Positions 1,718 to 36,217 are shown, counted from the stretch's first letter. The stretch: 41,236 nt of DNA from Rhodospirillaceae bacterium (GCA_018649245.1 JABIIH010000286.1:1-41236); one strand, 5' to 3'. Numbers and translations are program-made. Notes: generated by a model not told the origin, from the letters alone.

Positions 1718-1731
1718 ATATCATATGATAT
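1718..1731. promoter_or_regulatory. Perfect 14-bp palindrome ATATCATATGATAT, candidate MarR operator in the divergent promoter region
   Basis: Read directly. It lies in the 92-nt gap between the rdhA-like start (1665) and the preferred MarR start (1758). Dyad symmetry and size fit a winged-helix dimer site. Function is inferred only. Confidence 0.4.
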
Positions 1732-1757
1732 TAATTTTAGCTAGAGGAATATTCTCG

Positions 1758-2219: not shown

Positions 2220-2273
2220 GTGGCTTAAACTTTCCCAGTATTAGGTTAGTGAACACCGGGGAAAGAAAACAAC

Positions 2274-3542: not shown

Positions 3543-3560
3543 GAATAGGGGAGCGAAACC

Positions 3561-5192: not shown

Positions 5193-5266
5193 GTTGCATT
5201 TATTCCATTATTGGTGATGATTGGAACCTATAAAATCAGTTTAATAAAATTCGGGGAGAATAATAA

Positions 5267-5935: not shown

Positions 5936-5941
5936 AATCTA

Positions 5942-6835
5942 ATGGCTGATAGTGAGGCAGGGCCTTATAAGTCCTGCCAACCCCCGGATCCAAACCCGAA
6001 AAAACCACTAGCGACCTTGCCGCCCGGGGCCTGTGATGCGCATTGCCATATCTTTGGACCAGGCGATATATTCCCTTATCATCCGTCTCGTTCCTATACG
6101 CCGCCGGATGCCTCGCGCCAGACTTTAAAAAAGCTGCATGATTTCTTAGGTATCGAACGCGCGGTTATCGTTCAGGCGAGTTGCCACGGTCCTGACAACA
6201 CGGCGCTGCTGGATGCGATCGCACACAGCAACGGTAAGTATCGCGGTGTCTGCCATATCGATGAAAGCTACGGCGAAAAGGAACTGCAAGCGCTTCATGA
6301 CGGCGGCGTGCGCGGCGTGCGCTTTAATTTCGTCAAGCATCTGGGCGGCGCGCCGGATATCGACTTTTTGCGGCAGACGGTGAACGCCATCCGCGGTCTT
6401 GGCTGGCACTTGGTGTTGCATTTCGATGCCGCCGATTTGCTTGAGTACAAAGAACTACTCAGCGAGTTCAATATACCGATCGTGATTGATCACATGGGCC
6501 GCCCGGTTGCGGCAGAGGGCGTCGAGCAAGCGCCGTTCCAAACTTTGCTCGAATTTATGAAAGATGAAAATTACTGGGTCAAAGTCTGTGGCTCGGAACG
6601 AATATCGTCCGCCGGTGCACCGTTTCATGATGCTGTTCCCTTCGCTCAAAAGCTTATAGCGGTGGCGCCCGACCGGGTTATCTGGGGCACCGACTTCCCA
6701 CATCCTAATATCAAAGGAGATATGCCAAACGACGGCGATCTGGTAGATTTGATGGCGTTAATCGCTCCGGAAGAAAGCCAGCGGCAAAAATTACTCGTCG
6801 ATAATCCAGCGCGACTGTATGGCTTTGAAGGCTAG
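5942..6835 (+). CDS. Amidohydrolase-2 family protein (LigI / 2-pyrone-4,6-dicarboxylate lactonase-like)
   Basis: 297 aa. CDAHCHIFGP near the N-terminus, IDHMGRP, WGTDFPHP. These are the metal-independent lactonase-like amidohydrolase motifs as I recall them. Confidence 0.75.
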   Translation: MADSEAGPYKSCQPPDPNPKKPLATLPPGACDAHCHIFGPGDIFPYHPSRSYTPPDASRQTLKKLHDFLGIERAVIVQASCHGPDNTALLDAIAHSNGKYRGVCHIDESYGEKELQALHDGGVRGVRFNFVKHLGGAPDIDFLRQTVNAIRGLGWHLVLHFDAADLLEYKELLSEFNIPIVIDHMGRPVAAEGVEQAPFQTLLEFMKDENYWVKVCGSERISSAGAPFHDAVPFAQKLIAVAPDRVIWGTDFPHPNIKGDMPNDGDLVDLMALIAPEESQRQKLLVDNPARLYGFEG

Positions 6836-6840
6836 TTAAC

Positions 6841-7911
6841 ATGCAGAAATCCATTCCCTGCACGATGATGCGAGGTGGTACCTCGAAAGGGGCGTACTTC
6901 CTCAAATCAGACCTGCCTGAGAATGAGGCCGAGCGGGATCGGGTCCTGTTGTCGGTTATGGGCTCGCCCGATGACCGTCAAATCGATGGTCTCGGTGGAG
7001 CCAATCCGTTAACCAGTAAAGTCGCTATTGTCAGTAAGTCCGACGAGCCCGATGTCGATATCGATTATTTATTTGCCCAAGTCGTCGTTGATCAGCCGGT
7101 CGTCGGCTATGGCCAGAACTGCGGCAACATTCTGGCAGGCGTCGGTCAATTCGCTATTGAGAAAGGCTTGATTGAAGCGAACTCGCCAACAACGGAAGTT
7201 GCTGTCTTAATGCTCAATAGTGGTGACAAGGCTGTTGTGACCGTACCGACACCGAATGGCGAAGTGAGCTACGAGGGTGATGCCGAGATTGATGGTGTGC
7301 CGGGATGTGCCGCACCCGTGCCGTTAAACTTTCTAGAGACCGCCGGCTCGCTCTGTGGTGCTTTACTGCCAACTGGCAATGTGGTCGATGAAGTCGATGG
7401 CATCGAGTTGACGCTCATCGATAACGGCATGCCGGTCGTGGTTATGCGGGCCCGAGATTTCGGCGTCGAGGGCACTGAAACGGTCGATCAGTTGGAAGCC
7501 AATGAAGATTTGAAAAAACGCCTTGAGAGCATTCGTTTGCAGGTCGGGCCGCTGATGAATTTGGGCGATGTAACGGATAAAACCGTACCCAAAATGACGC
7601 TGGTATCCGCGCCCCAAAGTGGTGGCGTGATTTCCACGCGATCTTTTATCCCCCATCGCTGTCATTCGACCATCGGTGTGTTTGCTGCTGTGACCGTAGC
7701 GACGGCCTGTTTGATACCGGGCACACCCGCGGCTGAAATCGCCGGCGACTTAAGCACTGCCGGCCCGCAATTGCTGATCGAGCATCCCAGCGGCGCCATG
7801 GCCGTCGATATCGAGGTCGAGCAAAGCGACGGAGAGATCACGCTTAAACGCTCCGGCTTTATGCGCACAGCCCGCAAACTCTATGAAGGCCAGGTTTTTA
7901 TTTCTGAGTAG
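6841..7911 (+). CDS. PrpF family isomerase (4-oxalomesaconate tautomerase / LigU-GalD-like)
   Basis: 356 aa. N-terminal IPCTMMRGGTSKGAYFLKSDLP is the PrpF-family hallmark. Confidence 0.8.
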   Translation: MQKSIPCTMMRGGTSKGAYFLKSDLPENEAERDRVLLSVMGSPDDRQIDGLGGANPLTSKVAIVSKSDEPDVDIDYLFAQVVVDQPVVGYGQNCGNILAGVGQFAIEKGLIEANSPTTEVAVLMLNSGDKAVVTVPTPNGEVSYEGDAEIDGVPGCAAPVPLNFLETAGSLCGALLPTGNVVDEVDGIELTLIDNGMPVVVMRARDFGVEGTETVDQLEANEDLKKRLESIRLQVGPLMNLGDVTDKTVPKMTLVSAPQSGGVISTRSFIPHRCHSTIGVFAAVTVATACLIPGTPAAEIAGDLSTAGPQLLIEHPSGAMAVDIEVEQSDGEITLKRSGFMRTARKLYEGQVFISE

Positions 7912-7925
7912 AAGGAGTTTTTATT

Positions 7926-8531
7926 ATGCCGAGAGGTGTGATTGATATCGAAGGTATCCAGAGTGCGGAAATGCAGGCCTTGAAAAATCAAGTGACGCCG
8001 GGGGATATGCCATTCAATATTACTAAAATCGGTCATGTCGTTTTGCGCTGCACCGATATGGTGGCGTCCGTTAAGTTCTATACGGAGGTTCTGGGCTTTC
8101 GTGTTAGCGATGTATATCCAGACAGTATGATTGACGGCAAAATGGTGTTCATGCGCTGCAATAATGATCACCATGGAGTGGCGCTGGTCGGCGGCGCGAC
8201 GCATAAATCTGAAAACATCGAACTGCATCACATGGCGTTTGAAGTTGATAGTTTGGACGAAGTGATGCGGGCACGAGAACATCTCAACAAACATAATGTC
8301 GAAATCCTGTTTGAAGGCCGCCGCCGGGCCGGCGTGCAGATCGCAGTTGAATTTCTCGACCCCGATGGCCATTGGCTGGAAATATTTTGGGGCTTGGATC
8401 AGGTTGGTCCGACGGATAAAGCCCGCCCCCCGGAACAATGGGTGGAGGAATTTTCGCTCGAAGACGCCATCGACAGTGCGCCGGTCGGCCAAGACACCAC
8501 TTTGGCTGATCCCAGTTTGCTGAAAGACTAA
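7926..8531 (+). CDS. VOC superfamily, one-domain type I extradiol ring-cleavage dioxygenase-like
   Basis: 201 aa. Candidate His/His/Glu metal triad in IGHVVLRC, HHMAFEV, DPDGHWLEIF. AAGGAG SD 9 nt upstream. Confidence 0.75.
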   Translation: MPRGVIDIEGIQSAEMQALKNQVTPGDMPFNITKIGHVVLRCTDMVASVKFYTEVLGFRVSDVYPDSMIDGKMVFMRCNNDHHGVALVGGATHKSENIELHHMAFEVDSLDEVMRAREHLNKHNVEILFEGRRRAGVQIAVEFLDPDGHWLEIFWGLDQVGPTDKARPPEQWVEEFSLEDAIDSAPVGQDTTLADPSLLKD

Positions 8532-8537
8532 TTTAAG

Positions 8538-9416
8538 ATGACAAAAATTGCCTTTATCGGCTTTGGCGAAGCGGCTGGATTGTTAACCGATGGTCTAGCG
8601 GAGGCGGGCGCTGACGTTGCGGCGACGTTCGATATTCTTATCAACAATCCTGACAAAGCAATCGCGCATAAAGAAAAAGCCGGCAGCAAAGGCGTGCTGG
8701 CAGCAAAGGATGCCGAGCAGGCGGTACAAGCGGCTGATATTATAATTTCAGCTGTAACCTCAAAAGAAATTCTGATTGCCGCCAAAAATGTCGCACCGCA
8801 CCTAACCGCCAGTCAAATTTATATGGATATCAATTCAGCTTCGCCGGATGCGAAACAGGAGGCGGCTAAAGTGATTGAGGCAAGCGGTGCCGATTTTGTT
8901 GAGGCCGCCGTGATGGATCTGGTGCCGCCGCATGGTCATAAAGTGCCGATGTTATTGGCCGGTGCAAAGGCTGAGACACTGGCTGAGACCTTGAGCACCT
9001 ACGGCATGAACGTTAAAGCTATCGGTAGCGAAATCGGCAACGCATCATCAGTCAAGATGGTGCGGAGTGTCTTTATGAAGGGATTTTCGGCGATCCTGCT
9101 GGAAAGTTTGGTGGCGGCGCATAAACTCAATGCCGCTGATGCCGTGCTCGATTCTCTGCAAGTGACCTATCCTCAAATGAACTGGCATGAACTTGCGGGT
9201 AAATCGATGAGCCGCTTGATCCAGCATGCAAAACGCCAGTCTGAAGAGATGAGCTCGGTGGCGGCGACGCTTGAGAAGTTGGGTGTTGAGCCCATCACGG
9301 CCAAGGCGACCGGTGCTCGACTTGGCTGGCTCGCCGATTTAGAATTGGCTAAAGCCTCGGATAGCCTACCGGAAACTTATGATGAATTTTTGAAAATTCT
9401 CGACCAGCATAGTTAA
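8538..9416 (+). CDS. NAD(P)-dependent oxidoreductase (6-PGDH-type NAD-binding domain plus DUF1932-like C-terminus)
   Basis: 292 aa. Rossmann motif KIAFIGFGEAAG at the N-terminus. C-terminal half recalled as DUF1932-like. Confidence 0.7.
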   Translation: MTKIAFIGFGEAAGLLTDGLAEAGADVAATFDILINNPDKAIAHKEKAGSKGVLAAKDAEQAVQAADIIISAVTSKEILIAAKNVAPHLTASQIYMDINSASPDAKQEAAKVIEASGADFVEAAVMDLVPPHGHKVPMLLAGAKAETLAETLSTYGMNVKAIGSEIGNASSVKMVRSVFMKGFSAILLESLVAAHKLNAADAVLDSLQVTYPQMNWHELAGKSMSRLIQHAKRQSEEMSSVAATLEKLGVEPITAKATGARLGWLADLELAKASDSLPETYDEFLKILDQHS

Positions 9417-9421: not shown

Positions 9422-10312
9422 GTGACCAATCAGCAAACTCAACCTACTCAAAGCAATATTCTCCTTGGCATTCTCTTGACCATTGCCGCTGGTAGCGCGA
9501 TGGCGATCATGGATGCGATTAGCAAACATTTAACCGGCTCTTTTAATGTCGTGCAGGTGCTCTGGAGCCGCTATTTTTTTCATGCCATTATTGTTGTTGT
9601 TTATCTTTTGGCGACCCGCTCACGCTCGGTTTTCAAATCTAACCGGCCGGTGACCCAACTGCAAAGATCGTTTGCGCTATTTGCCGCCACGGCAGCGATG
9701 TATACGTCTCTGGTCTATCTGCCCTTGGCTGATGCCGCTGCCGTACAGCACGTTGCCCCGATTTTGGTGACAATCATATCCGCCATATTTTTGGGCGAGA
9801 AAGTTGGGCTCAGGCGTTTTGGCGCCGTTGTCGCCGGCTTTATTGGTGTGCTGATCATTATTCAGCCGGGTGCGGAGTTTCAATGGCCGATTTTACTGCC
9901 GCTCATCACGGCGGTTATGCTGGCGATATTCTTAATCCAAACTCGGACGCTGCAAGAACATGATGATGCCTACACCACGCTGTTTTATTCAACACTTGTC
10001 GGTGTGGTTGTGTTTATCGCCATCGTGCCCTTGGTGTGGCGGCAGCCGACGCTTGATGAATTTTTATTGATGTGCGTTCAAGGCAGCCTCGGCGCAATTG
10101 GGCATCTTATGCTTATAAAGGGCTTTAAATACGCTTCTGCCTCGGTGCTGGCGCCGTTTCTCTATTCACAGTTGCTGGTGTCGGTGATCCTCAGCGTGAC
10201 ATTCCTCGCCGATCCGCTAACCGTCATGATGCTTGCTGGGGCCAGCCTCATCGTCGCCAGTGGTATCTACATCTGGCATCGTGAAGTCTATTTGGCGGCG
10301 CATGCTACTTAA
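9422..10312 (+). CDS. DMT superfamily (EamA-like) transporter
   Basis: 296 aa with GTG start. About 10 hydrophobic helices in two EamA-like halves. Last gene of the plus-strand operon. Confidence 0.85.
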   Translation: MTNQQTQPTQSNILLGILLTIAAGSAMAIMDAISKHLTGSFNVVQVLWSRYFFHAIIVVVYLLATRSRSVFKSNRPVTQLQRSFALFAATAAMYTSLVYLPLADAAAVQHVAPILVTIISAIFLGEKVGLRRFGAVVAGFIGVLIIIQPGAEFQWPILLPLITAVMLAIFLIQTRTLQEHDDAYTTLFYSTLVGVVVFIAIVPLVWRQPTLDEFLLMCVQGSLGAIGHLMLIKGFKYASASVLAPFLYSQLLVSVILSVTFLADPLTVMMLAGASLIVASGIYIWHREVYLAAHAT

Positions 10313-10808
10313 AATAAATCGACTTGGTTGTCGGATCGAAACCGACGACGGCGATCTCGCCCGGTTTTAATTCGATTTTTTGCGCGAATTTATACTGCGC
10401 TCCTGTGGCAGTCTCGGCTTCATACAGTTGCACCAGAACTTCATGACTACCGGCGGGTACGGGGAAGCGTTCGTAAAATAAAGAGCGCCCATCATTGGAG
10501 AGACCGGAGGGTTCTGAAACTGCTTCGAAAACTGTTTTGCCGTTGATTTTAAGTTGAACGGTCACCGGATGGCGCTCGCGTGGACAGTCCATGAGTTTAC
10601 GGGCAGTCTTAGGAATATTGCGTTGATGATCGATGGCTCGCTCTGTGCAAGGATGTATACGTTGCCCAGGATGACTGATCGCGAGCTTAACCAGTGCCTG
10701 ATCTTCGCCGAACGGGTGGTAGGTAGGCTGGCTGGCAAAATAGCCAATTCCCAAGGCAAAAAGGAAATAGGCAAAACCCTGGCCTAGGATATCTAACAAG
10801 CGTTTCAT
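10305..10808 (-). CDS. Hypothetical membrane-anchored protein, translationally coupled to the cyt b-FeS fusion gene
   Basis: 167 aa. One N-terminal TM helix (FAYFLFALGIGYFA) followed by a soluble domain with two Cys. Its start overlaps the upstream stop by 4 nt (ATGA). No family recognised. Confidence 0.6.
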   Translation of the reverse strand: MKRLLDILGQGFAYFLFALGIGYFASQPTYHPFGEDQALVKLAISHPGQRIHPCTERAIDHQRNIPKTARKLMDCPRERHPVTVQLKINGKTVFEAVSEPSGLSNDGRSLFYERFPVPAGSHEVLVQLYEAETATGAQYKFAQKIELKPGEIAVVGFDPTTKSIYFK

Positions 10809-12376
10809 TCGGCAGCCTCCTGCCCAGTCTTTCCACTAACATGCGGCAATTGCCGAAGATGTTCGGTAAAGGCAGCGATCTCGTCACTCAGCTTAGCGCC
10901 ATCGGTGACCGCACCCCAGCAGGTCCAAACCCGCTCCCTGGGCACCCGCTCGCGTAGATAAGGATCACGCTCACCAGTTAGCCGCTGCTCGGTCCAATTG
11001 ATGCCGAAGCGATGGTAGCAATCTCCTTCCCGGCAGCCGGTGAGCAACACACCATCGGCCTTATCACGCATCAGAATATAATCAATAAAAGACGGCGGCA
11101 GCATTCCAATACAGGGCAGACGGGTGACGACGACATTGGCGTCTTTGATTTGCTCGACATCGATACCAAAATCGCAGCCATAGATGATAATCCGGGGTGT
11201 ACCCGGCGGCAGAATTTTTGGTAATTTGGCGAGCGAAGCATCGGTATCGGCGCGTAACTCGGTCAGACGGAAATGCGGCAGATCAATCCCGGTCACCAGC
11301 ATGTCAGCGCTTCTGAACGGTGTTGCGGTCGGACACGCTCCGACACAAATACCACAGGATGTGCAAATATCCGGATCAACAGAGGCAATGCTGGGATAAG
11401 GCCGACCATCTGTTCTTGGCTGCATGGTTACCGCCCCGAATGGGCAATCGGCATAGCATCTCGAACAGCCATTACAGTTGAGGTTATCAACTTCGGCGGC
11501 CTCTTTGATTTTGAGACTTGGCATCCACGGCAGCCAGCAGACAAAGACGGAAAGAGTTATGGCGATGAGCCAAAGTGCGCCGGCACCCCACATATCAAAT
11601 AGGGGGTAGGCGAGGGCGTAATACCAATCCAGATCAACAGTGGTGACGACTTTATCAAGATTGGCCGGGCCATGACTAATAGCGGGTTTAACCAGTGATA
11701 GTGCCAATAGCATCAGCAATGTGCCGATGGCCAAGCCGCGTGGTGGATTAATGCGGGGCCGGCTGATTTTGACGACATGAACAAAGCAAGCTATCAATAA
11801 AAACAGCGGGATGGCGATATGCAGAAACAGCAAAAGCGAGAACATGCGGTCGCTGAAGCTTGCTGGTGTCAGAAAGTTGTTAGCCAGCGGCTCACCAAAT
11901 ATGCCGAGCCAATCCAACCATTCTGACGAGGCGATCATGAGATATTGCGCGAGTTCATCCCAGACCAGCCAATAGCCACCGATGCCCGAGGCATAGAGCA
12001 GCCATATGATGGGCACACCGGAGACCCAGGTAAACCACCGGACTCCGCGGTAACGGTCCATGATGAACTCCCGGCCCATATGAATGAAAGTCGTCACCAC
12101 CATGGCGTCGGAGGCATAGCGGTGAAAGCTGCGCATAATGCCACCAGCATACCACTGATCATGGGTCATGCTTTCCACCGATTGGAAGGCCCCGGTGACG
12201 CTGGTTTCAAAAAAGATGTAGACGTAGATGCCACTGACCGCGACGATCCAGAAAAAGTAAAATGACAAGGCGCCAAGATGACGCAAAGGGTTCCATTCCG
12301 GACCAAAAGGGCGATCGAACCAACCTTCAAATTTCAGCAGAACTGCTTGAAGGGGACGCTGAATATTTTTGAGCAT
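10805..12376 (-). CDS. Fusion protein: dihaem cytochrome b-like membrane domain + 2x[4Fe-4S] ferredoxin + MvhD/FlpD-like domain
   Basis: 523 aa. Two H-x13-H pairs in TM helices (FHRYASDAMVVTTFIH, LHIAIPLFLLIACFVH). CNGCSRCYADCP and CTSCGICVGACP. C-terminal YGCDFG...LPCIGMLPP...KADGVLLTGCREGDCYHRFG. Confidence 0.75.
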   Translation of the reverse strand: MLKNIQRPLQAVLLKFEGWFDRPFGPEWNPLRHLGALSFYFFWIVAVSGIYVYIFFETSVTGAFQSVESMTHDQWYAGGIMRSFHRYASDAMVVTTFIHMGREFIMDRYRGVRWFTWVSGVPIIWLLYASGIGGYWLVWDELAQYLMIASSEWLDWLGIFGEPLANNFLTPASFSDRMFSLLLFLHIAIPLFLLIACFVHVVKISRPRINPPRGLAIGTLLMLLALSLVKPAISHGPANLDKVVTTVDLDWYYALAYPLFDMWGAGALWLIAITLSVFVCWLPWMPSLKIKEAAEVDNLNCNGCSRCYADCPFGAVTMQPRTDGRPYPSIASVDPDICTSCGICVGACPTATPFRSADMLVTGIDLPHFRLTELRADTDASLAKLPKILPPGTPRIIIYGCDFGIDVEQIKDANVVVTRLPCIGMLPPSFIDYILMRDKADGVLLTGCREGDCYHRFGINWTEQRLTGERDPYLRERVPRERVWTCWGAVTDGAKLSDEIAAFTEHLRQLPHVSGKTGQEAAE

Positions 12377-12390
12377 GTTATTTTAAATCT

Positions 12391-13326
12391 TTATATCGTC
12401 GAGCCGTTCGAAGTCTCGGAGTGTTGGTCGGCGGGCTTAAACCATAAGCGCCAGATATTTTTAACCAGGAAACTGCCTATCAATAAAAGGACAACAGCGC
12501 TGAGGAACATACCGATAAAGAATGAATAATCAAACCGATATTTACCGGCATAGGGATCGTAAATAGTGCAAAATAATTTTACCTGGTTGAGCAGAGAGTC
12601 AAAGCTTGTCAAAGACTTGGCAGTGCCGAGCAGTAATTGTTTAAGCGGTTCGGTAAGCCGTGTGGCTTCGAAGTCCTGGCCGTAAATCTGTGCATAAACT
12701 TCACCTTTGGCATCAATTAATGTGGTTTGAGTGAGGTGATCAAAGCCTTTAGGTGAGGTGAAATAGATAAAACCGGTATCGGCAGAGAGGCGTTCGACAA
12801 CATCTGGTTTGCCGCTTAACACCTGCCAGTTCGCATCACCGACAGCTTGTTGCTTGGCAAATGATTTCATCGCGCGCGGCGTATCTCGAAGCGTGTCGAA
12901 ACCAACTGAGATTACATTAAAATCTGCAGATCCGAGAGCCTCGCGGGCATCTTTGACGGCATCCATTAAATTCTGGGTCATCACAGGGCAGGTATGGGCA
13001 CAGCTTGAATAAACCATACTAAGCACCAATGGTTTACCCAGATATTGATTAAGATTAACAATTTTATTTTCTGTACTGATGAACTTGTAATGTCCAACTG
13101 TCTTACCGATGGCGGATTGACTGTAATTGTAAGCTGCTTGGGGTTCGAACTTGGCAGCGCCGGGGAAAGATTCTTTGGTGACGGTTCGAGCTGATTGACC
13201 CGGCTCCTGATGAGAGGATTTTGCACTATCATCATGCGCTTGGACAGGCGTTGCAGCAATAAGGCTCATTACAATTAGAATAATGATAACCCATAAACCG
13301 CTTATTTTTTTCGCCCGTAAATTCAT
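12391..13326 (-). CDS. SCO1/SenC family copper chaperone / thiol-disulfide oxidoreductase
   Basis: 311 aa. Thioredoxin-like CxxxC in VYSSCAHTCP, downstream FDHLTQT His. N-terminal signal-like peptide (…ATPVQA/HDD) and a C-terminal TM helix (FFIGMFLSAVVLLLIGSFLV). Confidence 0.85.
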   Translation of the reverse strand: MNLRAKKISGLWVIIILIVMSLIAATPVQAHDDSAKSSHQEPGQSARTVTKESFPGAAKFEPQAAYNYSQSAIGKTVGHYKFISTENKIVNLNQYLGKPLVLSMVYSSCAHTCPVMTQNLMDAVKDAREALGSADFNVISVGFDTLRDTPRAMKSFAKQQAVGDANWQVLSGKPDVVERLSADTGFIYFTSPKGFDHLTQTTLIDAKGEVYAQIYGQDFEATRLTEPLKQLLLGTAKSLTSFDSLLNQVKLFCTIYDPYAGKYRFDYSFFIGMFLSAVVLLLIGSFLVKNIWRLWFKPADQHSETSNGSTI

Positions 13327-13364
13327 CTGGTGTTCCCGTTTTTTTTTAGATTTTGGAAAGAACT

Positions 13365-13392
13365 CCGACGGACGGGTAGGAACGTCCGCCGG
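13365..13392 (-). other. Intercistronic stem-loop between oxidase subunit I and SCO/SenC genes
   Basis: CCGACGGACG-GGTAGGAA-CGTCCGCCGG: a 10-bp GC-rich stem with one mismatch and an 8-nt loop. There is no U-tract after it on the transcribed (minus) strand. Confidence 0.35.
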
Positions 13393-13421
13393 ATTTCTTC
13401 ATTGAGGTCTTACGTAACTAG

Positions 13422-15116
13422 TTAACTGAGGCCCCAAGTGGAGGCTAGGAATTTCCAGTTAACAAAGAAGTACAGCACAAACACGGCCAGGAATATAAGG
13501 GCCAAGGTGAAGGTGCCGGATACATTGGCAACGCCTGCGCTGCCATGTGCCGTCATTGCAGATGGTACATCAGCGACGGGTGGCTCTGGTGCCGCTGCTG
13601 CCGGAACCTCGTCACGGTTTTTACCCCATAACAACGAACCAACAATCACGACCACGAACATCACGCCGCCGATCGTTGCAATCGTTGCAAAGACGCCATT
13701 GATGCCCATCATCAGATGTGCCAGTGCCGGATGATCAAACTTAATCGCCGCATCGGCGTAGGTGATATCCCAGTGACGGCGGGAAATACCCAAAGTGCCG
13801 GCACCCATCATGGCAAGCGAGATACCTGCAACGCCTAAGCCGAAGAAGTATGGCTGCCATTTAGCCCAACCCGGCAAGATGAGTTCACGCCGGAACAAGA
13901 CTGGCACCAGCCAATAGGTGATCGCCATAAACGCCAAGGTCGTACCCGCGGCAACTGTGCCATGGAAGTGACCCGGTACATAAAGCGTATTGTGGACAAT
14001 GATATTGACCTGTTCTTGGCCCATGATCACGCCAGTAATACCACCCAGTACGCCAAACAACACCAAGGAGATGAACATGCCCGAGAACACCGGGTTACCC
14101 CAAGGAGCTTTACGGAGCCATTCAAACAGCCCGTTGGTGTAGCCTTTTTTGCGTTGAGCTGCTTCGATCGCACCTGGTACCGTCAGGCCGTGGATCATAC
14201 TAGCCATCACTGCGAGATAGAGCAGATAGCTGGTATTGACGATCTTCCATTCCGAGCTTAGCCCCGGTTCCACCAGAAGATGGTGAGCCGATGCTAATTG
14301 CAGGAACAAGATGTACATCAGGAAGGCAAAGCGGCTAACTTTTTCCGACAGTGGTTTTGCACCGAACAGAATAGCTGCAATGGCGTACCAAACCGCAATA
14401 TGAGCGGCGACGTTGATTTGCTGGGATGAGTGACCCATTGCCCACCAAATTACTTTGTACATCAACGGATCAATGTAAGCGATCAAGCCCACCGACCAAA
14501 GGAAGGTCGGGATTAAAATTACGGCACCCGAGGCAATAGTGAAAACGGCGATAATAGCTGCCGTCATTGCTCCGAAAGTGACGAGCGGGATTGAGCCTTC
14601 ATAGGTCTTTTCAGCTTTAGCGATTACCAAAGTGGCGAAGAAGACTGCACAGCCACACAAAGCACCGACAGCAAAGACAATGATGCCGATATAGAACAAT
14701 GGATCGGCCTGCATTGGCACATACGAGGTGAACATAACATTCGATTCACCTTGCAAGACAATAACCACTGTCAGCAAAGCACCAATTGTCATCAGCCAGT
14801 AGCCGAGCCAGGCCAGTTTTGGCAGCGCCAATCTCACATTCAGCAATATAGAGGATGCAAAATAAAGCAAGGCCATCTCAAAATAGATGAGCCAAACCAG
14901 CAAGATGACAATGCCATGGGCGGTTAGCACCATGTAAAAATCATCGGCACCCAATAGATGGATTTCAGGCCATCTGGTTAACGCGACAAGAAAGCCGAGC
15001 AAACCACCAATTGCCAAAAAGACAATACTGGTTACGGCATTCCACTTAATTAGTTTTTCGCCAGCGAGATCGACTTTAAAGCCGGTGTCGGGGCAAATGC
15101 GATAAGGACTAGTCAT
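13422..15116 (-). CDS. Heme-copper oxidase subunit I, B-family-like, lacking the His-Tyr cross-link tyrosine
   Basis: 564 aa, about 13 TM helices. Haem ligands LTAHG and VHNTLYVPGHFHG. CuB ligands GH(229) and ASAHH(278/279)LL. Collinear by eye with ba3-type subunit I, but GHSSQQ replaces GHPIVY. Confidence 0.9.
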   Translation of the reverse strand: MTSPYRICPDTGFKVDLAGEKLIKWNAVTSIVFLAIGGLLGFLVALTRWPEIHLLGADDFYMVLTAHGIVILLVWLIYFEMALLYFASSILLNVRLALPKLAWLGYWLMTIGALLTVVIVLQGESNVMFTSYVPMQADPLFYIGIIVFAVGALCGCAVFFATLVIAKAEKTYEGSIPLVTFGAMTAAIIAVFTIASGAVILIPTFLWSVGLIAYIDPLMYKVIWWAMGHSSQQINVAAHIAVWYAIAAILFGAKPLSEKVSRFAFLMYILFLQLASAHHLLVEPGLSSEWKIVNTSYLLYLAVMASMIHGLTVPGAIEAAQRKKGYTNGLFEWLRKAPWGNPVFSGMFISLVLFGVLGGITGVIMGQEQVNIIVHNTLYVPGHFHGTVAAGTTLAFMAITYWLVPVLFRRELILPGWAKWQPYFFGLGVAGISLAMMGAGTLGISRRHWDITYADAAIKFDHPALAHLMMGINGVFATIATIGGVMFVVVIVGSLLWGKNRDEVPAAAAPEPPVADVPSAMTAHGSAGVANVSGTFTLALIFLAVFVLYFFVNWKFLASTWGLS

Positions 15117-15128
15117 AATCTTTTTCCC

Positions 15129-15674
15129 CTACTTGCTGTCTTTGACATACATTTTGCCGACCATGGTATGGTGACCAGAGCCGCAAAATTCGTTACAGAT
15201 AATGCCAAATTCACCGGAACTCGTTGGTGTGATGGTTACGACCATGTCGTAATTTGGATGAACTTGCAGATTGATATTCTCCGGTTGCAGCGAAAAGCCA
15301 TGCTGGTAATCCAAGGAAGAAAGATGCAATCGATAGCTCTTACCTTTTTCGAGTTCCAGAATTGGCCACCAATCCCACAAACGAGCCAGCATATAAACGT
15401 CGCTGCCAGCAGGTGGTTTAACTACTGGGACATCGTTGTCGCCTTCGACTCTTACTTGATATTTTTTGGCAAAAGCCTCAGTTTTCTCAGCATATTTGTC
15501 GGCGGTTATTTTATATGCTTCGTTAGATAAATTCTGGTCGCCTGTCAGATGCCAGTACGGCATCATGAAAAACATGATCAAGCCCCAGATAAAAGCAATG
15601 GTAACCCAAAGCACTTCGGTTTTTTCTACCGGCTTTGACCACCATATGCGATCTTCAGGAGGATAAATTGACAT
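15129..15674 (-). CDS. Heme-copper oxidase subunit II with CuA centre (short, single-TM, ba3-like)
   Basis: 181 aa. One TM helix (VLWVTIAFIWGLIMFFMMPYW). Full CuA motif: H in YQHGF plus CNEFCGSGHHTM (CxExCGxxHxxM). AAGAGG SD upstream. Confidence 0.9.
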   Translation of the reverse strand: MSIYPPEDRIWWSKPVEKTEVLWVTIAFIWGLIMFFMMPYWHLTGDQNLSNEAYKITADKYAEKTEAFAKKYQVRVEGDNDVPVVKPPAGSDVYMLARLWDWWPILELEKGKSYRLHLSSLDYQHGFSLQPENINLQVHPNYDMVVTITPTSSGEFGIICNEFCGSGHHTMVGKMYVKDSK

Positions 15675-15736
15675 AGTTATTACCTCTTAAATGTAAAACG
15701 GATATTTTATTAAACAGAACATGAAGCCTCAGCGCT

Positions 15737-15907
15737 CTATGGAGCGAGAGGGATGGCGGTGATTTCAATAATTCCCCAGATGATGTAAACCACCGTCGGA
15801 ATTGCAACGCCCAAAAACAAAAGTAAGAAATGATTATCCAAGAACCGCTGCATGAACGGAATATCCGCATCTGATGCAGGCGGTGATGGTTGATCTGAAG
15901 GTGTCAT
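15737..15907 (-). CDS. Unlisted 56-aa single-TM peptide upstream of the oxidase genes
   Basis: My codon-by-codon translation gives MTPSDQPSPPASDADIPFMQRFLDNHFLLLFLGVAIPTVVYIIWGIIEITAIPLAP, then TAG. GGGGA lies 7 nt upstream of the ATG. It is below the apparent size cutoff of the ORF track. It sits 62 nt upstream of subunit II on the same strand. Confidence 0.45.
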   Translation of the reverse strand: MTPSDQPSPPASDADIPFMQRFLDNHFLLLFLGVAIPTVVYIIWGIIEITAIPLAP

Positions 15908-16079
15908 AATTGGTCCCCTTTAATGATATTTCTCAAGCGATCCGCTTAAATTTCATAGACGAATCGCGCACCTCATCAGGAGACCATAGCTTAAGCTGGC
16001 TGTCCTTAACTGTGGTTAGTTCCAATTAGTCGCAGAAATCGGCGTTTTTTTTGGATGGTTAAATAATTCAAATGGTGTT

Positions 16080-16093
16080 TTGACGTAGATCAA
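16080..16093. promoter_or_regulatory. FNR/DNR-type box TTGAC-GTAG-ATCAA
   Basis: 9/10 match to the TTGAT-N4-ATCAA consensus. It lies in the 248-nt divergent region, about 62 nt upstream of the Crp/Fnr regulator start and about 173 nt upstream of the 56-aa ORF. Confidence 0.55.
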
Positions 16094-16155
16094 AAGCAAA
16101 TTACGAAATTCGGTATAGGATAGCGGAATTAAAAGTTTTAATTTCTGGAGAATAT

Positions 16156-16860
16156 GTGGTTATGCGCGATAGTGATCGACACTATTTTAATCAGCATCCG
16201 TTGTTCAATCAAATCGATGACGAGTCATTGGATCGGATCATTGCTGGCAGCTCTGCTACTGATTATGCCAAAGGTCAGACTATCTTTCATCGTGGTAACC
16301 CGGCAGATGTTTTTTATTTTGTGCTCGAAGGCTGGGTTAAAGTCTATCGCAGTACAGCTGAAGGCGATGAGGCAATTGTCCATATATTTAGCGCAGGTGA
16401 AACCATTGCTGAAGCCGTTGCCTTTGCTGGTAAAAATTATCCGGTCAGTGCGCAAGCGGTGGAGCATTCTCGGGTCGTGCCCATCTTGACCAAACGGCTG
16501 GTTGCTGAATTGTCGCGGTCACCAGAACTCGCCTTGTCTATTATGGGTTCTTTGTCACTTCAGCTACACAGCATGGTAACCGAGATCGAACAATTGAAAA
16601 CCCGCACTGCTACCCAACGAGTCTGCGATTTCTTCATCCGGCGCTGCACTGTTGATGAGGGATCAGTCGTTATTTCCCTGCCTTATGACAAAGTGATTAT
16701 TGCGTCACGTCTTGGCATGAAACCGGAAAGTCTGTCTCGCATTCTAAATCGGCTGCGGAAAATCGGTGTGAGAACCGAAAATGGCCGGGTTGCGATTGCC
16801 GATGTCGAGGCTCTCATCCGGTTTAGCGATGGCGAGTCAGCGATATCTCTAACCGGCTAA
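16156..16860 (+). CDS. Crp/Fnr family transcriptional regulator (Cys-less, Dnr/NnrR-like)
   Basis: 234 aa (GTG 16156, alternative ATG 16162; GGAG at 16146-16149). cNMP-binding-like beta-roll (GQTIFHRGNPADVFYFVLEGWVKVYR). HTH with E--SR recognition motif (MKPESLSRILNRLRK). No N-terminal Cys cluster of true FNR. Confidence 0.85.
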   Translation: MVMRDSDRHYFNQHPLFNQIDDESLDRIIAGSSATDYAKGQTIFHRGNPADVFYFVLEGWVKVYRSTAEGDEAIVHIFSAGETIAEAVAFAGKNYPVSAQAVEHSRVVPILTKRLVAELSRSPELALSIMGSLSLQLHSMVTEIEQLKTRTATQRVCDFFIRRCTVDEGSVVISLPYDKVIIASRLGMKPESLSRILNRLRKIGVRTENGRVAIADVEALIRFSDGESAISLTG

Positions 16861-16993
16861 TTCACCCAGCTACTTTTCCCCTATATTATTTTAAGTAAGC
16901 TTGATTGATGCCAATTTGGGCAGCACAATCAGCACGAATTGTAGACGAAGAGTCTGCGACTAAAAAAATAATGATTCTTCAGGAGTTTCAGGG

Positions 16994-17383
16994 ATGGGAA
17001 AAGGTAAACCACATTTAGAATTTGCGCCTTTGGATATGGACGAAGGCTGGGAAGTGCCGGAAGGTTATCCCGAAGGTATGGAGCAAAAAGTACTGACATC
17101 CGATTTGGATGAAGCAGGCAAAACCGGTAGCCGATCGCGTTTTCTGCGCATAAAGCCTGGCGTTTATTCGACCGAACCATTTGTTCACGAACATTGGGAA
17201 GAAGTCTATCTCTGTGAAGGCGACATGATTGTCGGCAATGACGAAAACGGCGAAGGCGGTGAGAAATTTCAAGCGCCAACTTATGCCTGCCGTCCACCGG
17301 GAGTATTTCATGGGCCATTTAAGTCTGAAGGCGGCTGCGTCATGTTTGAGCTGCATTACTTCTATAAAGCCGATGCCGAGTAG
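16994..17383 (+). CDS. Cupin domain protein
   Basis: 129 aa. Cupin-like motifs FVHEHWEEVYLCEG and RPPGVFHGPF. AGGAG SD about 9 nt upstream. Preferred over the antisense 142-aa ORF. Confidence 0.75.
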   Translation: MGKGKPHLEFAPLDMDEGWEVPEGYPEGMEQKVLTSDLDEAGKTGSRSRFLRIKPGVYSTEPFVHEHWEEVYLCEGDMIVGNDENGEGGEKFQAPTYACRPPGVFHGPFKSEGGCVMFELHYFYKADAE

Positions 17384-17442
17384 ATAAAAAGTTACAAAAA
17401 TAAAGTCTCCCGGGACGCAATAATATAATAGGGAATATAACA

Positions 17443-18903
17443 ATGCTGAAAACAGGTAAGGAACATCTTGAGGGCCTGAGAGATGGCCGCACGGTTTTTA
17501 TTGGTAAAGAAAAAGTCGATGACGTCACCACCCATCCAGCCTTTAAAAATGCGGCGCAGACAGTAGCTGATTTATACGATATTAAACACGATCCCGAACA
17601 CCGTGATACCATGTCATTTGAAGAAGATGGCGAGCGTTATTCAATGTGGTTTCTGCGCGCTAAAAGTCAGGATGATCTTCGTCAGCGCACGCAGGCTCAC
17701 AAAAAAATTGCTGATCTGTCTTGTGGTTTGTTTGGTCGCTCACCCGATCACGTATCGAGCTTCGTCACCGGCATGTCGACCAACCCATCGGCGTTCGATT
17801 CGGAAGAAAACAAGTTTGGCGACAATCTGATGAACTACTACGAACATATGCGTAAAAACGATATTTTTGCGACTTATGCCGTGTTGCCGCCGCAAGCTGC
17901 TCGCAATCCTGAATTTTATGAATCGCAAAATCTTCCAGTACCTACTTTACGCGTTGTCCGGGAAGACGATGATGGCGTCGTTATGTCGGGGATGAAAATG
18001 CTGGCGACCAGCGCCGTCTTTTGCGATGAAATTTGGGTCGGTAATCTGCTGCCCTTGGCGCCTAATCAATTGAAGGAATCGATCACCTGTGCGATTCCTT
18101 GCAATGCCGAAGGCTTGTCGCTCTGGATGCGCCAACCAATTTCGTTGAACGCGGCCAATGAATTCGATAGTCCATTAACCTGGAAATACGACGAGACCGA
18201 CGTGTTGGTTTTATGTGACGAAGTTAAAGTGCCGTGGGAGAAAATCTTTGTCATGGATGACACCGTTCGATCACGCGGGGTCTATACAGAAACGCCAGGG
18301 CATTGTTACGGCAATCATCAATCGAATGTCCGGTTTTGGTCTAAAATGCAGTTGATCCTTGGTCTTTGTTCAAAAGTAGCCCAGGCCAGCGGTGCGAATG
18401 AAATTCCTGTCGTGCGTGAGACTATCGGCCGCATGGCAGCGCTCGAGGCGACTCTCGCGGGTATGATTCACGGCCAGATTGAAGCGGCCGAAGAATGGCC
18501 GGCGGGCTACAAAACCTACAATCGCCGGATGATGTATGCGGCGCTCAATTGGTGCACCGAAAGCCATTCGCAGATCGTTGATGTTTTACGCGAGCTGTGC
18601 GGTGGTGGCGTGTTTCAAATGCCGGCTAGCGTCGATATTATGCATGATGCCGAACTTAAGGCAGATTTTGAAAAATATTTCCAAACGCCACAATTGGCTG
18701 CCCTTGACCGCATGAAATTGTTCCGGTTGGCCTGGGATTTTGTTGGTTCTGAATTTGCCGGTCGGCAACAGCAATATGAAAAGTTTTATGCCGGGGCGTC
18801 CTTTATCGTGCGCAGCCACTCGCACCGCGAAGCTGATTGGGACTTTTTTGATGGTATTGTTGACAATATCATGGCGGATTATGACGTGCCGGAACCGGTT
18901 TAA
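17443..18903 (+). CDS. HpaB-family (group D) flavin-dependent monooxygenase, oxygenase component
   Basis: 486 aa. The N-terminus EHLEGLRDGRTVFIGKEKVDDVTTHPAFKNAAQTVADLYD closely parallels E. coli HpaB as I recall it. The C-terminal LAWDFVGSEFAGRQQQYE block also matches. Confidence 0.85.
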   Translation: MLKTGKEHLEGLRDGRTVFIGKEKVDDVTTHPAFKNAAQTVADLYDIKHDPEHRDTMSFEEDGERYSMWFLRAKSQDDLRQRTQAHKKIADLSCGLFGRSPDHVSSFVTGMSTNPSAFDSEENKFGDNLMNYYEHMRKNDIFATYAVLPPQAARNPEFYESQNLPVPTLRVVREDDDGVVMSGMKMLATSAVFCDEIWVGNLLPLAPNQLKESITCAIPCNAEGLSLWMRQPISLNAANEFDSPLTWKYDETDVLVLCDEVKVPWEKIFVMDDTVRSRGVYTETPGHCYGNHQSNVRFWSKMQLILGLCSKVAQASGANEIPVVRETIGRMAALEATLAGMIHGQIEAAEEWPAGYKTYNRRMMYAALNWCTESHSQIVDVLRELCGGGVFQMPASVDIMHDAELKADFEKYFQTPQLAALDRMKLFRLAWDFVGSEFAGRQQQYEKFYAGASFIVRSHSHREADWDFFDGIVDNIMADYDVPEPV

Positions 18904-19002
18904 GCAGCTTTATAACAATCAATAAAATTGTGGTTTTAAATGCCTTTTCATTCTGCCTCCACCTTTGTATCGTATTTCCGCTCAGGGAAGGTATAGATCA
19001 GT

Positions 19003-22625: not shown

Positions 22626-22653
22626 CCTCACAATATTCTCACTGCGAAGTGAT

Positions 22654-36212: not shown

Positions 36213-36217
36213 AATTC

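What the first reader, a model, noticed from the sequence alone, without database searches (positions are those of the whole stretch)
10305..15907. Six-gene oxidase module matching the poorly characterised sNOR-type (norS-norY-senC-orf1) arrangement
The minus-strand order is: 56-aa TM peptide, CuA subunit II, Tyr-less subunit I, SCO/SenC, cyt b-FeS-MvhD fusion, 167-aa anchored protein. Gaps are small or the genes overlap. There are no subunit III/IV genes, haem A/O synthase or cytochrome c genes. From memory, ammonia-oxidiser genome papers describe a norSY-senC-orf1 cluster proposed to encode a heme-copper NO reductase (sNOR). To my knowledge its activity, electron donor and orf1 role have not been resolved biochemically. 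Here the same order occurs next to heterotroph-type catabolic genes and under a DNR-like regulator. That offers a tractable context to define the system, including two extra small components.
Basis: partly seen in the sequence, partly recalled or inferred. Interest (0 to 1): 0.7.

Follow-up and report, generated by a model that had tools for sequence, protein, structure and literature searches.

The report
eNOR-type nitric oxide reductase operon
The six genes are real, but they form an ordinary member of the already described eNOR family of nitric oxide reductases, not the sNOR of ammonia oxidisers; the only open question is what the conserved cytochrome b/iron-sulfur partner gene and its small neighbour do.

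Summary
Six co-oriented minus-strand genes at 10305-15907 encode a small TM peptide, a CuA subunit II, a Tyr-less heme-copper subunit I, SCO, a cytochrome b-2x[4Fe-4S]-MvhD fusion and a 167-aa anchored protein. A divergent CRP/FNR regulator and an FNR-type box lie upstream.

The sNOR label does not hold. The cross-link tyrosine position carries Gln (GH-SS-Q-Q), the published eNOR diagnostic; sNOR has Asn. The serine equivalent to ba3 S309, reported missing in sNOR, is present.

The closest named relatives come from genera reported to carry eNOR: Paramagnetospirillum (71% identity) and Ca. Accumulibacter (64%). The gene set matches the 'very common' eNOR operon described for Ferrigenium. One eNOR, from Rhodothermus marinus, was shown in 2024 to reduce NO and not O2.

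The module order is conserved in about 65 of 67 related loci, often beside nirS or nosR genes. Marine metatranscriptomes show that it is transcribed.

Two points go beyond the literature I read. The cytochrome b-FeS-MvhD gene is near-universal in the proteobacterial eNOR operons sampled. The 167-aa protein is fused to its C-terminus in at least two lineages, so the two probably act as one unit. Their function is uncharacterised.

Verdict: a new member of a known kind, of moderate interest.

The parts
16156..16860 (+). Divergent CRP/FNR-family regulator (234 aa). It has no N-terminal Cys cluster and an E-SR recognition helix, so it is DNR/NnrR/FtrB-like.
   Evidence: Pfam cNMP_binding 1.5e-19 and HTH_Crp_2 7e-12. 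The best NCBIfam match is FtrB at 137 bits, below the 211-bit cut-off. A similar regulator lies near the operon in 20 of 81 loci and in the 96%-identical relatives.
16080..16093 (.). FNR/DNR-type palindromic box TTGACGTAGATCAA (one mismatch to TTGAT-N4-ATCAA), in the divergent intergenic region.
   Evidence: Boxes with at most one mismatch occur upstream of the operon in 35 of 76 related loci, at 0.87 per kb against 0.02 per kb in control sequence. The upstream limit of the RNA contig is 16039, about 47 nt downstream of the box centre.
15737..15907 (-). Small single-TM peptide (56 aa, or 38 aa from an internal Met). It is positioned like subunit IIa of ba3-type enzymes.
   Evidence: ORF. TM segment at 29-47. 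tblastn gives 46-76% identity at the same position in most related loci. An RNA contig covers it.
15129..15674 (-). eNOR subunit II: one TM helix plus a cupredoxin domain with a complete CuA site.
   Evidence: Motifs DYQHGF...CNEFCGSGHHTM read from the sequence. Weak CoxB and NosZ C-terminal hits. Present in 81 of 81 loci.
13422..15116 (-). eNOR subunit I. All six canonical His are present (H67, H229, H278, H279, H383, H385). Gln233 replaces the cross-link Tyr. The K-channel-like residues S306, T312 and Y244 are kept.
   Evidence: PF00115 at 4e-66. Best solved structure is T. thermophilus ba3 at E 1e-45, and that alignment gives Y237->Q, S309=S306 and T315=T312. Family alignment and tree.
13364..13393 (-). 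Stable RNA hairpin in the 95-nt gap after subunit I. It has no U-tract. It is probably a 3' stabiliser or partial stop that sets the ratio of structural to accessory transcripts.
   Evidence: Folding energy -27.8 kcal/mol, z-score -2.6. Metatranscriptome contig depth falls from about 18 to about 5 across it. In 59 of 81 relatives a heme O synthase gene occupies this position instead.
12391..13326 (-). SCO/SenC copper chaperone with an N-terminal anchor, a CxxxC motif and an extra C-terminal TM helix. Presumed role is CuA assembly.
   Evidence: PF02630 at 1e-13. TM segments. Present in 79 of 81 loci.
10805..12376 (-). Six-TM cytochrome b (bc1/b6 type, helices A-F) fused to a cytoplasmic 2x[4Fe-4S] ferredoxin domain and an MvhD/FlpD [2Fe-2S]-type domain.
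   Evidence: Pfam and NCBIfam hits. Conserved in 63 homologues: two His pairs spaced 14 residues apart, a PEWY-like D250-W-Y-Y-x3-Y motif, two CxxCxxCxxxCP motifs and four MvhD Cys. Present in 65 of 67 loci with enough flank. Among plasmids, the full-length fusion occurs only on the one eNOR plasmid.
10305..10808 (-). 167-aa protein: an N-terminal TM anchor (positive-inside) and a probably periplasmic beta-sandwich with two conserved Cys (C54, C75). Its start overlaps the cyt b gene by 4 nt.
   Evidence: No family match. Only 17 word-based homologues, all unnamed. AF2 pLDDT 81.6. No PDB fold match below E 1e-3. Homologous to the C-terminal extension of longer cyt b fusions in L086 (E 6e-14) and L061 (E 2e-32).

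Best explanation
This is an operon for an eNOR-family nitric oxide reductase, a branch of the heme-copper superfamily derived from B-type oxygen reductases, in an uncultured marine proteobacterium. Its closest relatives are labelled Rhodospirillaceae.

Shown:
- Subunit I keeps all heme and active-site His ligands but carries Gln where oxygen reductases have the cross-linked Tyr.
- Subunit II carries a CuA site.
- A small TM peptide precedes subunit II.
- SCO is present.
- A cyt b-FeS-MvhD membrane protein and its translationally coupled 167-aa partner complete the cluster.
- The gene order is conserved across Alpha-, Beta-, Gamma- and delta-type proteobacteria.
- The cluster is transcribed in seawater.
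- An FNR-type box lies upstream.

Inferred from the characterised Rhodothermus enzyme and the family's frequent linkage to nirS and nosR:
- The enzyme reduces 2 NO to N2O at a heme/non-heme-metal site.
- Electrons enter through CuA and protons through a K-type channel.
- It is induced at low O2 or by NO through the CRP/FNR regulator.
- Here it would serve NO detoxification or partial denitrification, because no nir or nos genes lie in the window.

Inferred, weaker:
- The cyt b-FeS-MvhD protein plus the 167-aa protein form one membrane redox module.
- That module links the quinone pool and/or a cytoplasmic reductant to eNOR, as its dedicated electron-input partner.
- SCO loads CuA.
For: - Diagnostic residue. 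The alignment to ba3 gives Y237->Q233 with no gap, and the GHxxQQxN motif is invariant in the clade. Published tables give eNOR = Q and sNOR = N. 'Characteristic Gln' is the criterion used for eNOR trees.
- Relatives. At least 586 species genomes carry the motif. The best 80 include Paramagnetospirillum caucaseum (71% identity) and Ca. Accumulibacter (64%). The M. magnetotacticum enzyme and Accumulibacter genes are named as eNOR in PMC11214002.
- Operon. The Ferrigenium eNOR operon is described as II, I, heme O synthase, sco1 and a scaffold protein, plus cyt b-FeS genes. The same set is found here and in 65 of 67 loci.
- Function. R. marinus eNOR reduces NO and cannot reduce O2. In related loci the neighbours include nirS (25 loci), a nirJ-like gene, nosR-like genes, ApbE and CtaA.
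- Phylogeny. The Gln clade is separate from the ba3-type GHPxVYFWL clade and is sister to a Tyr-bearing archaeal clade.
- Expression. Four marine metatranscriptomes hold the sequence. Contigs bridge p56->II and II->I, and the flanking genes have no coverage.
- Regulation. An FNR-type box is enriched about 44-fold upstream of the operon across loci.
- Module unity. The 167-aa protein is fused to the cyt b protein in L086 and L061. The two genes overlap by 4 nt here.
Against: - I never aligned the window protein with the R. marinus eNOR or with any AOB NorY. Family assignment rests on the published diagnostic residue, on relatives in genera reported to carry eNOR, and on operon content.
- The NJ bootstrap for the whole Gln clade is only 60.
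- The window has no heme O or heme A synthase gene and no nir or nos genes, so the heme type and the physiological role are open.
- Thermus and haloarchaeal eNOR-like loci lack SCO, the cyt b fusion and p167. The catalytic core therefore does not strictly need them.
- RNA contigs do not bridge the subunit I->SCO junction, and depth falls there.
- Contig depth is a poor measure of expression.
Confidence: 0.78

Rival explanations
1. It is an sNOR (norS-norY-senC-orf1) cluster like that of ammonia-oxidising bacteria.
For: The order is superficially the same: subunit II, subunit I, SCO/SenC, then a membrane protein. In N. europaea this is NE0684-NE0681. Both families are Tyr-less, CuA-containing and B-family-related.
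Against: The residue at the Tyr position is Gln, not Asn. The S309-equivalent serine is retained, whereas sNOR is reported to lack it. The nearest named relatives are in genera reported to carry eNOR. Operon content matches the described eNOR operon.
Confidence: 0.03
2. The enzyme is mainly a high-affinity terminal oxygen reductase induced at low O2, with NO reduction as a side reaction.
For: It is a heme-copper enzyme and its closest solved structure is ba3 oxidase. The FNR-type box suggests low-O2 induction. The same argument has been made for AOB sNOR.
Against: It has no cross-link tyrosine on helix VI, and no Tyr six residues before the HH pair on helix VII, where I recall the C-family tyrosine lies. 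R. marinus eNOR could not reduce O2 with several donors, and the M. magnetotacticum homologue lacks cytochrome c oxidase activity. Relatives are frequently linked to nirS and nosR.
Confidence: 0.07
3. The downstream genes (SCO, cyt b-FeS-MvhD, p167) are a separate functional unit that merely travels with eNOR. For example, they could be an independent quinone:ferredoxin-type oxidoreductase rather than an electron-input partner of eNOR.
For: There is a hairpin and a 3-4-fold drop in RNA depth after subunit I, and no contig bridges that junction. A heme O synthase gene is inserted at this point in 59 of 81 loci. Thermus and haloarchaeal eNOR-like loci lack these genes.
Against: Co-occurrence in the same order in 65 of 67 loci across classes, at 51-82% subunit I identity. 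Among 72,556 plasmids the full-length fusion occurs only on the one eNOR plasmid. SCO has an obvious client in the CuA subunit.
Confidence: 0.12

Closest known systems
eNOR family of heme-copper NO reductases (Hemp & Gennis 2008; Murali et al. 2024, PMC11214002). [quoted passage not shown]
   Same: Gln at the cross-link Tyr position, a CuA subunit II and K-channel-like residues. Relatives occur in Magnetospirillum-group bacteria, Accumulibacter, haloarchaea and Thermus. The operon carries SCO, and most relatives also carry heme O synthase.
   Different: This locus lacks heme O and heme A synthase genes and the hemerythrin gene found after p167 in 54 of 81 relatives. It is not next to nir or nos genes. 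I made no direct sequence comparison with the R. marinus enzyme.
Ferrigenium straubiae eNOR operon (bioRxiv 10.64898/2026.01.22.701106)
   Same: eNOR II, eNOR I, sco1, a protein of unknown function and a cyt b + [Fe-S] protein lie in one cluster.
   Different: That preprint calls the cyt b genes 'rather unusual'. Here the cyt b-2x[4Fe-4S]-MvhD gene is near-universal in the proteobacterial eNOR loci sampled. The second Ferrigenium-type paralogue (cyt b + 2Fe-2S + FAD + NAD(P)H) is absent from the window but present in Accumulibacter L079.
sNOR (norSY-senC-orf1) of ammonia oxidisers
   Same: Tyr-less, CuA-containing and B-family-derived, followed by a SenC/SCO gene and a further membrane protein gene.
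   Different: The diagnostic residue is Asn in sNOR and Gln here. sNOR is reported to lack the S309 equivalent, which is present here. sNOR activity is still unproven, whereas one eNOR has been characterised.
ba3-type (B-family) cytochrome c oxidase of Thermus thermophilus
   Same: It is the best solved-structure match (E 1e-45). The His ligands are the same, subunit II has a single TM helix plus a separate small TM subunit (IIa-like), and the K-channel Ser, Thr and Tyr are shared.
   Different: Tyr237 is replaced by Gln. The helix VI motif is GHSSQQINV instead of GHPIVYFWL. The protein falls in a separate clade.
Cytochrome b of bc1/b6f complexes, and MvhD/FlpD of Hdr-linked hydrogenases
   Same: Two His pairs spaced 14 residues apart on helices B and D, and a PEWY-like [DE]-W-Y-[FY]-x3-Y motif between TM5 and TM6. 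The MvhD-type domain has four Cys, and there is a 2x[4Fe-4S] ferredoxin domain.
   Different: No Rieske protein or cytochrome c1/f gene is present. There are only six TM helices. The FeS domains are fused on the cytoplasmic side. It is encoded in an NO reductase operon and is sometimes fused to the p167 beta-sandwich.

Membership tests
eNOR | Heme-copper superfamily subunit I with the six canonical His ligands | tested here: met
   H67, H229, H278, H279, H383 and H385. PF00115 at E 4e-66.
eNOR | Cross-link tyrosine (ba3 Y237) replaced by glutamine | tested here: met
   Q233 aligns with Y237 without gaps. It is invariant in the clade. The criterion comes from PMC8756737 Table A4 and its Fig. 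6 legend.
eNOR | CuA-binding cupredoxin subunit II encoded immediately upstream | tested here: met
   H...C-x3-C-x3-H-x2-M in the 181-aa protein. Weak CoxB and NosZ C-terminal hits.
eNOR | K-channel residues like those of the B-family, including the S309 equivalent | tested here: met
   S306=S309, T312=T315 and Y244=Y248 in the ba3 alignment. S306 and Y244 are invariant in alignment A1. T312 of ba3 is His here.
eNOR | Groups with recognised eNOR sequences (R. marinus, M. magnetotacticum, Accumulibacter, haloarchaea) | tested here: inconclusive
   Clusters with Paramagnetospirillum (71% identity), Accumulibacter (64%), a haloarchaeal sequence and a Thermus sequence. These are genera or groups reported to carry eNOR. 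The reference proteins themselves (R. marinus, M. magnetotacticum McaI) were not available to align. Whole-clade bootstrap is 60.
eNOR | Heme As in both heme sites; heme O/A synthase genes often in the operon | not testable with these tools
   The window has no cyoE or ctaA gene. Of 81 relatives, 59 have heme O synthase and 14 have CtaA nearby.
eNOR | Catalyses NO reduction to N2O and not O2 reduction | not testable with these tools
   Known only for the R. marinus enzyme.
sNOR | Cross-link tyrosine replaced by asparagine (same active site as bNOR) | tested here: not met
   The residue is Gln233. The nearby Asn235 is two positions further on and aligns with ba3 W239.
sNOR | S309 equivalent missing, with a conserved Glu in a different location | tested here: not met
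   S306 is present and invariant. An invariant Glu (E80, helix II) exists, but its equivalence to the sNOR Glu is unknown.
sNOR | Groups with AOB NorY; the gene after senC is homologous to AOB orf1 | not tested
   No AOB locus could be retrieved. The genome scan returned only the best 80 loci, and two other routes failed.
B-family O2 reductase (ba3 type) | His-Tyr cross-link motif GHP-x-V-Y on helix VI | tested here: not met
   The motif here is GHSSQQINV. The protein lies in a clade separate from GHPxVYFWL sequences. A true B-family example for contrast is the M. radiotolerans plasmid.
FNR/DNR-regulated promoter | TTGAT-N4-ATCAA site upstream, plus a CRP/FNR regulator with an E-SR helix | tested here: met
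   Box at 16080-16093 with one mismatch. Enriched across loci. The regulator domains and the ESLSR helix are present (sequence). NO or O2 sensing itself is not testable.

The most novel reading that the evidence does not exclude
The conserved cyt b-2x[4Fe-4S]-MvhD protein and its p167 partner may form a Rieske-less, bc-type module that docks onto eNOR. It would have a Qo-like pocket (the PEWY-like motif) on the periplasmic side and an FeS outlet or inlet on the cytoplasmic side. Proteobacterial eNOR would then be a self-contained supercomplex. One version wires quinol directly to NO reduction. The more radical version splits quinol electrons between the very oxidising NO/N2O couple and a low-potential cytoplasmic acceptor. 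The paralogue with FAD and NAD(P)H domains in Accumulibacter and Ferrigenium would be the NAD(P)-linked version of the same device.
Probability: 0.2. Interest if true: 0.75.

Novelty: new member of a known kind. Interest (0 to 1): 0.38.

Why it matters
eNOR is reported to be the most abundant and most transcribed NO reductase clade in estuarine and coastal sediments (PMC13592168). Correct labelling of such loci therefore matters for N2O budgets. [quoted passage not shown]

For this window the correction removes most of the claimed novelty. The family is described, and one member has been characterised biochemically.

What remains open is the physiological electron donor of eNOR. In the proteobacterial loci sampled, a cyt b-FeS-MvhD protein and a small beta-sandwich protein accompany the enzyme almost invariably, and the two are sometimes fused. 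This points to a defined candidate that can be tested in tractable relatives such as Magnetospirillum.

Tried and rejected
- Retrieving an AOB sNOR locus for direct comparison failed by three routes. The 1.84-billion-representative search gave unnamed sequences and many fragments. Cluster look-up of ten representatives named only archaeal or Dehalococcoidia MAGs. A homologue search seeded with the 51%-identical representative P0121 returned 'Deltaproteobacteria' MAGs, not AOB. The single genome-contig scan kept only the best 80 loci, all at least 64% identical.
- Candidate sNOR-like plasmid hits were checked. The Methylobacterium radiotolerans and Burkholderia contaminans HCOs keep the helix VI tyrosine (GHPIVY and LHAIVY), so they are ordinary Tyr-bearing B-family oxidases. 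The Cupriavidus record has no annotation.
- The supplementary alignments of Murali et al. are not held. The sNOR and eNOR residue definitions therefore came from secondary sources.
- p167: no Pfam or NCBIfam family. Only 17 word-based homologues. The AF2 model is a generic beta-sandwich with no PDB match below E 1e-3, so no function could be inferred from the fold.
- Rfam found nothing in 9800-17000.
- The hairpin after subunit I is not a canonical intrinsic terminator, because it has no U-tract.
- No convincing -10 hexamer lies at the ideal class II distance from the FNR box. The promoter assignment rests on the box, its conservation and the RNA contig limit only.

Full report

- Subunit I (564 aa) matches PF00115 at E 4e-66.
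- The 311-aa protein matches SCO1/SenC at E 1e-13.
- The 523-aa protein combines Cytochrome_B (3e-16), a 4Fe-4S dicluster (3e-10) and FlpD/MvhD (1e-12).
- The 56-aa and 167-aa proteins match no Pfam or NCBIfam family.
- Subunit II gives only weak CoxB and NosZ C-terminal hits, but its sequence carries a complete CuA motif (DYQHGF...CNEFCGSGHHTM).

Hydropathy gives one TM segment in the 56-aa peptide and one in subunit II. SCO has an N-terminal and a C-terminal TM segment. The cyt b fusion shows four hydrophobic peaks above the threshold; counting cyt b helices B and C, which the Pfam cytochrome b match spans, I read six TM helices. Gaps between genes are 62, 12, 95, 14 and -4 nt.

The flanks are aromatic-acid-type catabolic genes (HpaB, PrpF, amidohydrolase_2, dienelactone hydrolase, AMP-ligase, an EamA transporter) and a polysaccharide biosynthesis cluster. 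The 41 kb hold no nir, nos, heme O/A synthase or cytochrome c genes.

**Which family.** The best solved structure is T. thermophilus ba3 oxidase (E 1e-45). In that alignment the helix VI motif GH-PIV-Y of ba3 pairs without gaps with GH-SSQ-Q of the window, so Tyr237 corresponds to Gln233. S309, T315 and Y248 of the ba3 K-channel correspond to S306, T312 and Y244.

All six canonical His are present: H67, H229, H278, H279, H383 and H385.

The literature gives the family diagnostics. A table modified from Hemp & Gennis lists sNOR = Asn, eNOR = Gln, gNOR = Asp and bNOR = Asn at this position (PMC8756737). Heylen & Keltjens describe Asn in the Bacillus enzymes they equate with sNOR. A published eNOR tree uses 'the characteristic Gln' as its criterion. 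Murali et al. state that the S309 equivalent is missing in sNOR but present in the B1 subfamily, eNOR and bNOR. On both residues the window protein fits eNOR and fails sNOR.

**Relatives.** An exhaustive search of 1.84 billion representatives shows a compact group with GHxxQQxN. Next to it is a Tyr-bearing archaeal group with GHxxQYxN (Hodarchaeales, Thermoproteota). Only then come ba3-type sequences with GHPxVYFWL. This fits the published statement that eNOR clusters with the K-family oxygen reductases.

They are Rhodospirillaceae, Thalassospiraceae and Woeseiaceae MAGs, Sulfuricaulis, Halioglobus, Steroidobacteraceae, Paramagnetospirillum caucaseum SO-1 (71%) and several Ca. Accumulibacter (64%). 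Murali et al. name the M. magnetotacticum 'cytochrome a1-like' hemoprotein and the Accumulibacter genes as eNOR.

In an NJ tree the Gln clade is monophyletic. Bootstrap is 60 for the whole clade and 100 for the proteobacterial part. The clade is separate from the ba3-type clade.

**Operon conservation.** tblastn of the six window proteins against the 80 loci, and clustering of all ORFs, show the same order almost everywhere: small peptide, II, I, SCO, cyt b fusion, p167. Of 67 loci with at least 7 kb downstream, 65 have the cyt b fusion by clustering. One more (L042) has it by tblastn. Sixty-three have a separate p167.

Common additions that the window lacks:
- a heme O synthase gene between subunit I and SCO (59 of 81 loci);
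- a hemerythrin gene after p167 (54 of 81 loci).

Frequent neighbours are nirS (25 loci), a nirJ-like radical SAM gene (12), ApbE (10), a NosR-like gene (9) and CtaA (14). A Defluviimonas plasmid carries the whole set plus cyoE and hemerythrin.

This is the composition that a 2026 preprint describes as 'very common' for eNOR operons (II, I, heme O synthase, sco1, a scaffold protein of unknown function). That preprint adds two cyt b-FeS genes which it regards as unusual.

A 96%-identical relative in marine assemblies shares the entire window synteny, including the regulator and the catabolic genes.

**The accessory module.** Across 63 homologues the cyt b fusion conserves the following:
- two His pairs spaced 14 residues apart, on helices B and D;
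- a [D]-W-Y-Y-x3-Y motif between TM5 and TM6, which matches the spacing of the PEWY Qo-site motif of cytochrome b (from established knowledge of bc1);
- two CxxCxxCxxxCP motifs;
- four Cys in the MvhD-like domain.

With six TM helices and the N-terminus inside, the FeS domains are cytoplasmic. This topology is an inference.

The 167-aa protein evolves fast. It has only 17 word-based homologues, all unnamed. Its AlphaFold model (pLDDT 81.6) shows an N-terminal helix and a beta-sandwich with no significant PDB match. Two Cys are invariant in the close set.

In a 'Deltaproteobacteria'-type MAG locus the subunit I is only 51% identical. There the cyt b-Fer4-FlpD protein is 715 aa long, and its C-terminal 165 residues are homologous to p167 (26% identity, E 6e-14). 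That locus also carries napA, napD and nirS. A gammaproteobacterial locus (L061) has the same fusion (36% identity, E 2e-32). Five further loci have cyt b ORFs that run about 220-240 residues beyond the MvhD motif, against 52 here.

These fusions, together with the 4-nt gene overlap in the window, argue that the cyt b protein and p167 act as one unit.

Accumulibacter L079 additionally encodes a paralogue with cyt b + 2Fe-2S + FAD-binding + NAD-binding domains. This is the type noted in Ferrigenium.

The linkage is not universal in the family. Thermus (45% identity; it has Lys in place of the second low-spin heme His, a feature reported for some eNORs) and a haloarchaeon (39%) have only subunits II and I, plus the small ORF in Thermus, without SCO, cyt b or p167. 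Among 72,556 plasmids the full-length fusion occurs only on the one plasmid that carries the proteobacterial-type eNOR.

**Expression and regulation.** Four marine metatranscriptomes hold the sequence. In the best run, contigs cover 16039 to 13339 at word depth 12-18 and bridge the p56/II and II/I junctions. Coverage of SCO, cyt b and p167 is patchy, at depth 3-10. The EamA gene and the regulator have no coverage.

The step in depth coincides with a stable hairpin at 13393-13364 (-27.8 kcal/mol, z -2.6, no U-tract). Co-transcription of the first three genes is therefore supported. Read-through into the last three is plausible but not shown. Contig depth is only a rough guide.

An FNR/DNR-type box, TTGACGTAGATCAA, lies at 16080-16093 between the operon and the divergent CRP/FNR regulator. 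Such boxes occur upstream of the operon in 35 of 76 loci, at 0.87 per kb against 0.02 per kb in control sequence. The regulator lacks an FNR-type Cys cluster and has an E-SR helix (sequence). Whether it senses NO cannot be tested here.

**Mechanism.**

Shown: the anatomy, its conservation, transcription, and the conserved FNR-type box.

Inferred from the family: R. marinus eNOR reduces NO at about 0.7 per second and cannot reduce O2, and the M. magnetotacticum homologue lacks oxidase activity. On that basis the window enzyme most likely reduces NO to N2O. Electrons would enter through CuA and protons through a K-type channel, under low-O2 or NO control. Without nir or nos genes nearby, the role would be NO detoxification or a partial denitrification step.

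Inferred more weakly: the cyt b-FeS-MvhD/p167 unit links quinol and/or a cytoplasmic reductant to CuA. I cannot distinguish a donor role from a bifurcating or reverse-flow role.

**Comparison and novelty.** The locus is a typical proteobacterial eNOR operon. The family was proposed in 2008, and one member was validated biochemically in 2024. It is reported as the most abundant and most expressed nor clade in coastal sediments. It is not an sNOR cluster, and the claim that activity is unresolved does not apply to this family.

Two points are not in the papers I could read. The cyt b-FeS-MvhD gene is near-universal in the proteobacterial eNOR operons sampled. It is recurrently fused to the 167-aa protein.

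**Limits.**
- I could not align the window protein with the R. marinus, M. magnetotacticum or AOB reference proteins.
- The tree is NJ with modest support at the deepest node.
- The synteny survey covers only the 80 closest species genomes plus five more distant loci.

Noticed in passing
window 13320-13430 (minus strand): A stable hairpin without a U-tract lies in the 95-nt gap after subunit I. It coincides with a 3-4-fold drop in metatranscriptome contig depth. In most relatives a heme O synthase gene sits at this position.
   Followed up: partly
L079 16466-18379 (Ca. Accumulibacter): A second cytochrome b paralogue downstream of p167 carries 2Fe-2S, FAD-binding and NAD-binding domains in place of the 4Fe-4S and MvhD domains. 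The membrane module therefore comes in an NAD(P)H-linked version in some Betaproteobacteria.
   Followed up: partly
L086 5844-7337: In the delta-type MAG, a further weak COX1-like gene (497 aa) lies directly upstream of the small-peptide/II/I genes. It is next to nirS, a multiheme cytochrome and napDA. Its identity was not examined.
   Followed up: no
L002 7983-9665 (Thermus thermophilus plasmid pHB5018d): This eNOR-like subunit I has GHFK instead of GHFH, so a Lys replaces the second low-spin heme ligand. It is followed by an Rrf2 regulator and a DUF542 gene. A multicopper oxidase domain gene (possibly NirK-like; not checked) and a cytochrome c gene lie upstream. No SCO or cyt b genes are present.
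   Followed up: partly
window 1725-9416 and 16994-24129: An aromatic or organic-acid catabolic neighbourhood. It includes MarR, DUF3500, an AMP-dependent ligase, dienelactone hydrolase, amidohydrolase_2, PrpF, a glyoxalase-type dioxygenase, an NAD-binding reductase, a cupin, an HpaB-type monooxygenase, and a two-gene TPP/POR-DUF6537 2-oxoacid:ferredoxin oxidoreductase-like pair. The same genes flank the operon in a 96%-identical relative (L089).
   Followed up: partly
window 24144-41190: A surface-polysaccharide cluster. It has two asparagine synthase paralogues, a Wzy-type ligase or polymerase, a heptosyltransferase-family gene, five or six GT4 glycosyltransferases, GDP-mannose 4,6-dehydratase, an epimerase and a UDP-glucose/GDP-mannose dehydrogenase. 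GC content is lower around 27-35 kb (0.44-0.48).
   Followed up: no
window subunit I residues E80 and Y268: An invariant Glu in helix II (the FFE motif) and an invariant Tyr ten residues before the HH pair are shared by the Gln clade and the neighbouring Tyr-bearing archaeal clade. Both are absent from ba3-type sequences. Their role is unknown.
   Followed up: no
related loci, downstream of p167 (for example L001 13523-13927): A hemerythrin-family gene follows p167 in 54 of 81 related loci but is missing from the window. It may be an O2, NO or iron-related accessory of the operon.
   Followed up: partly
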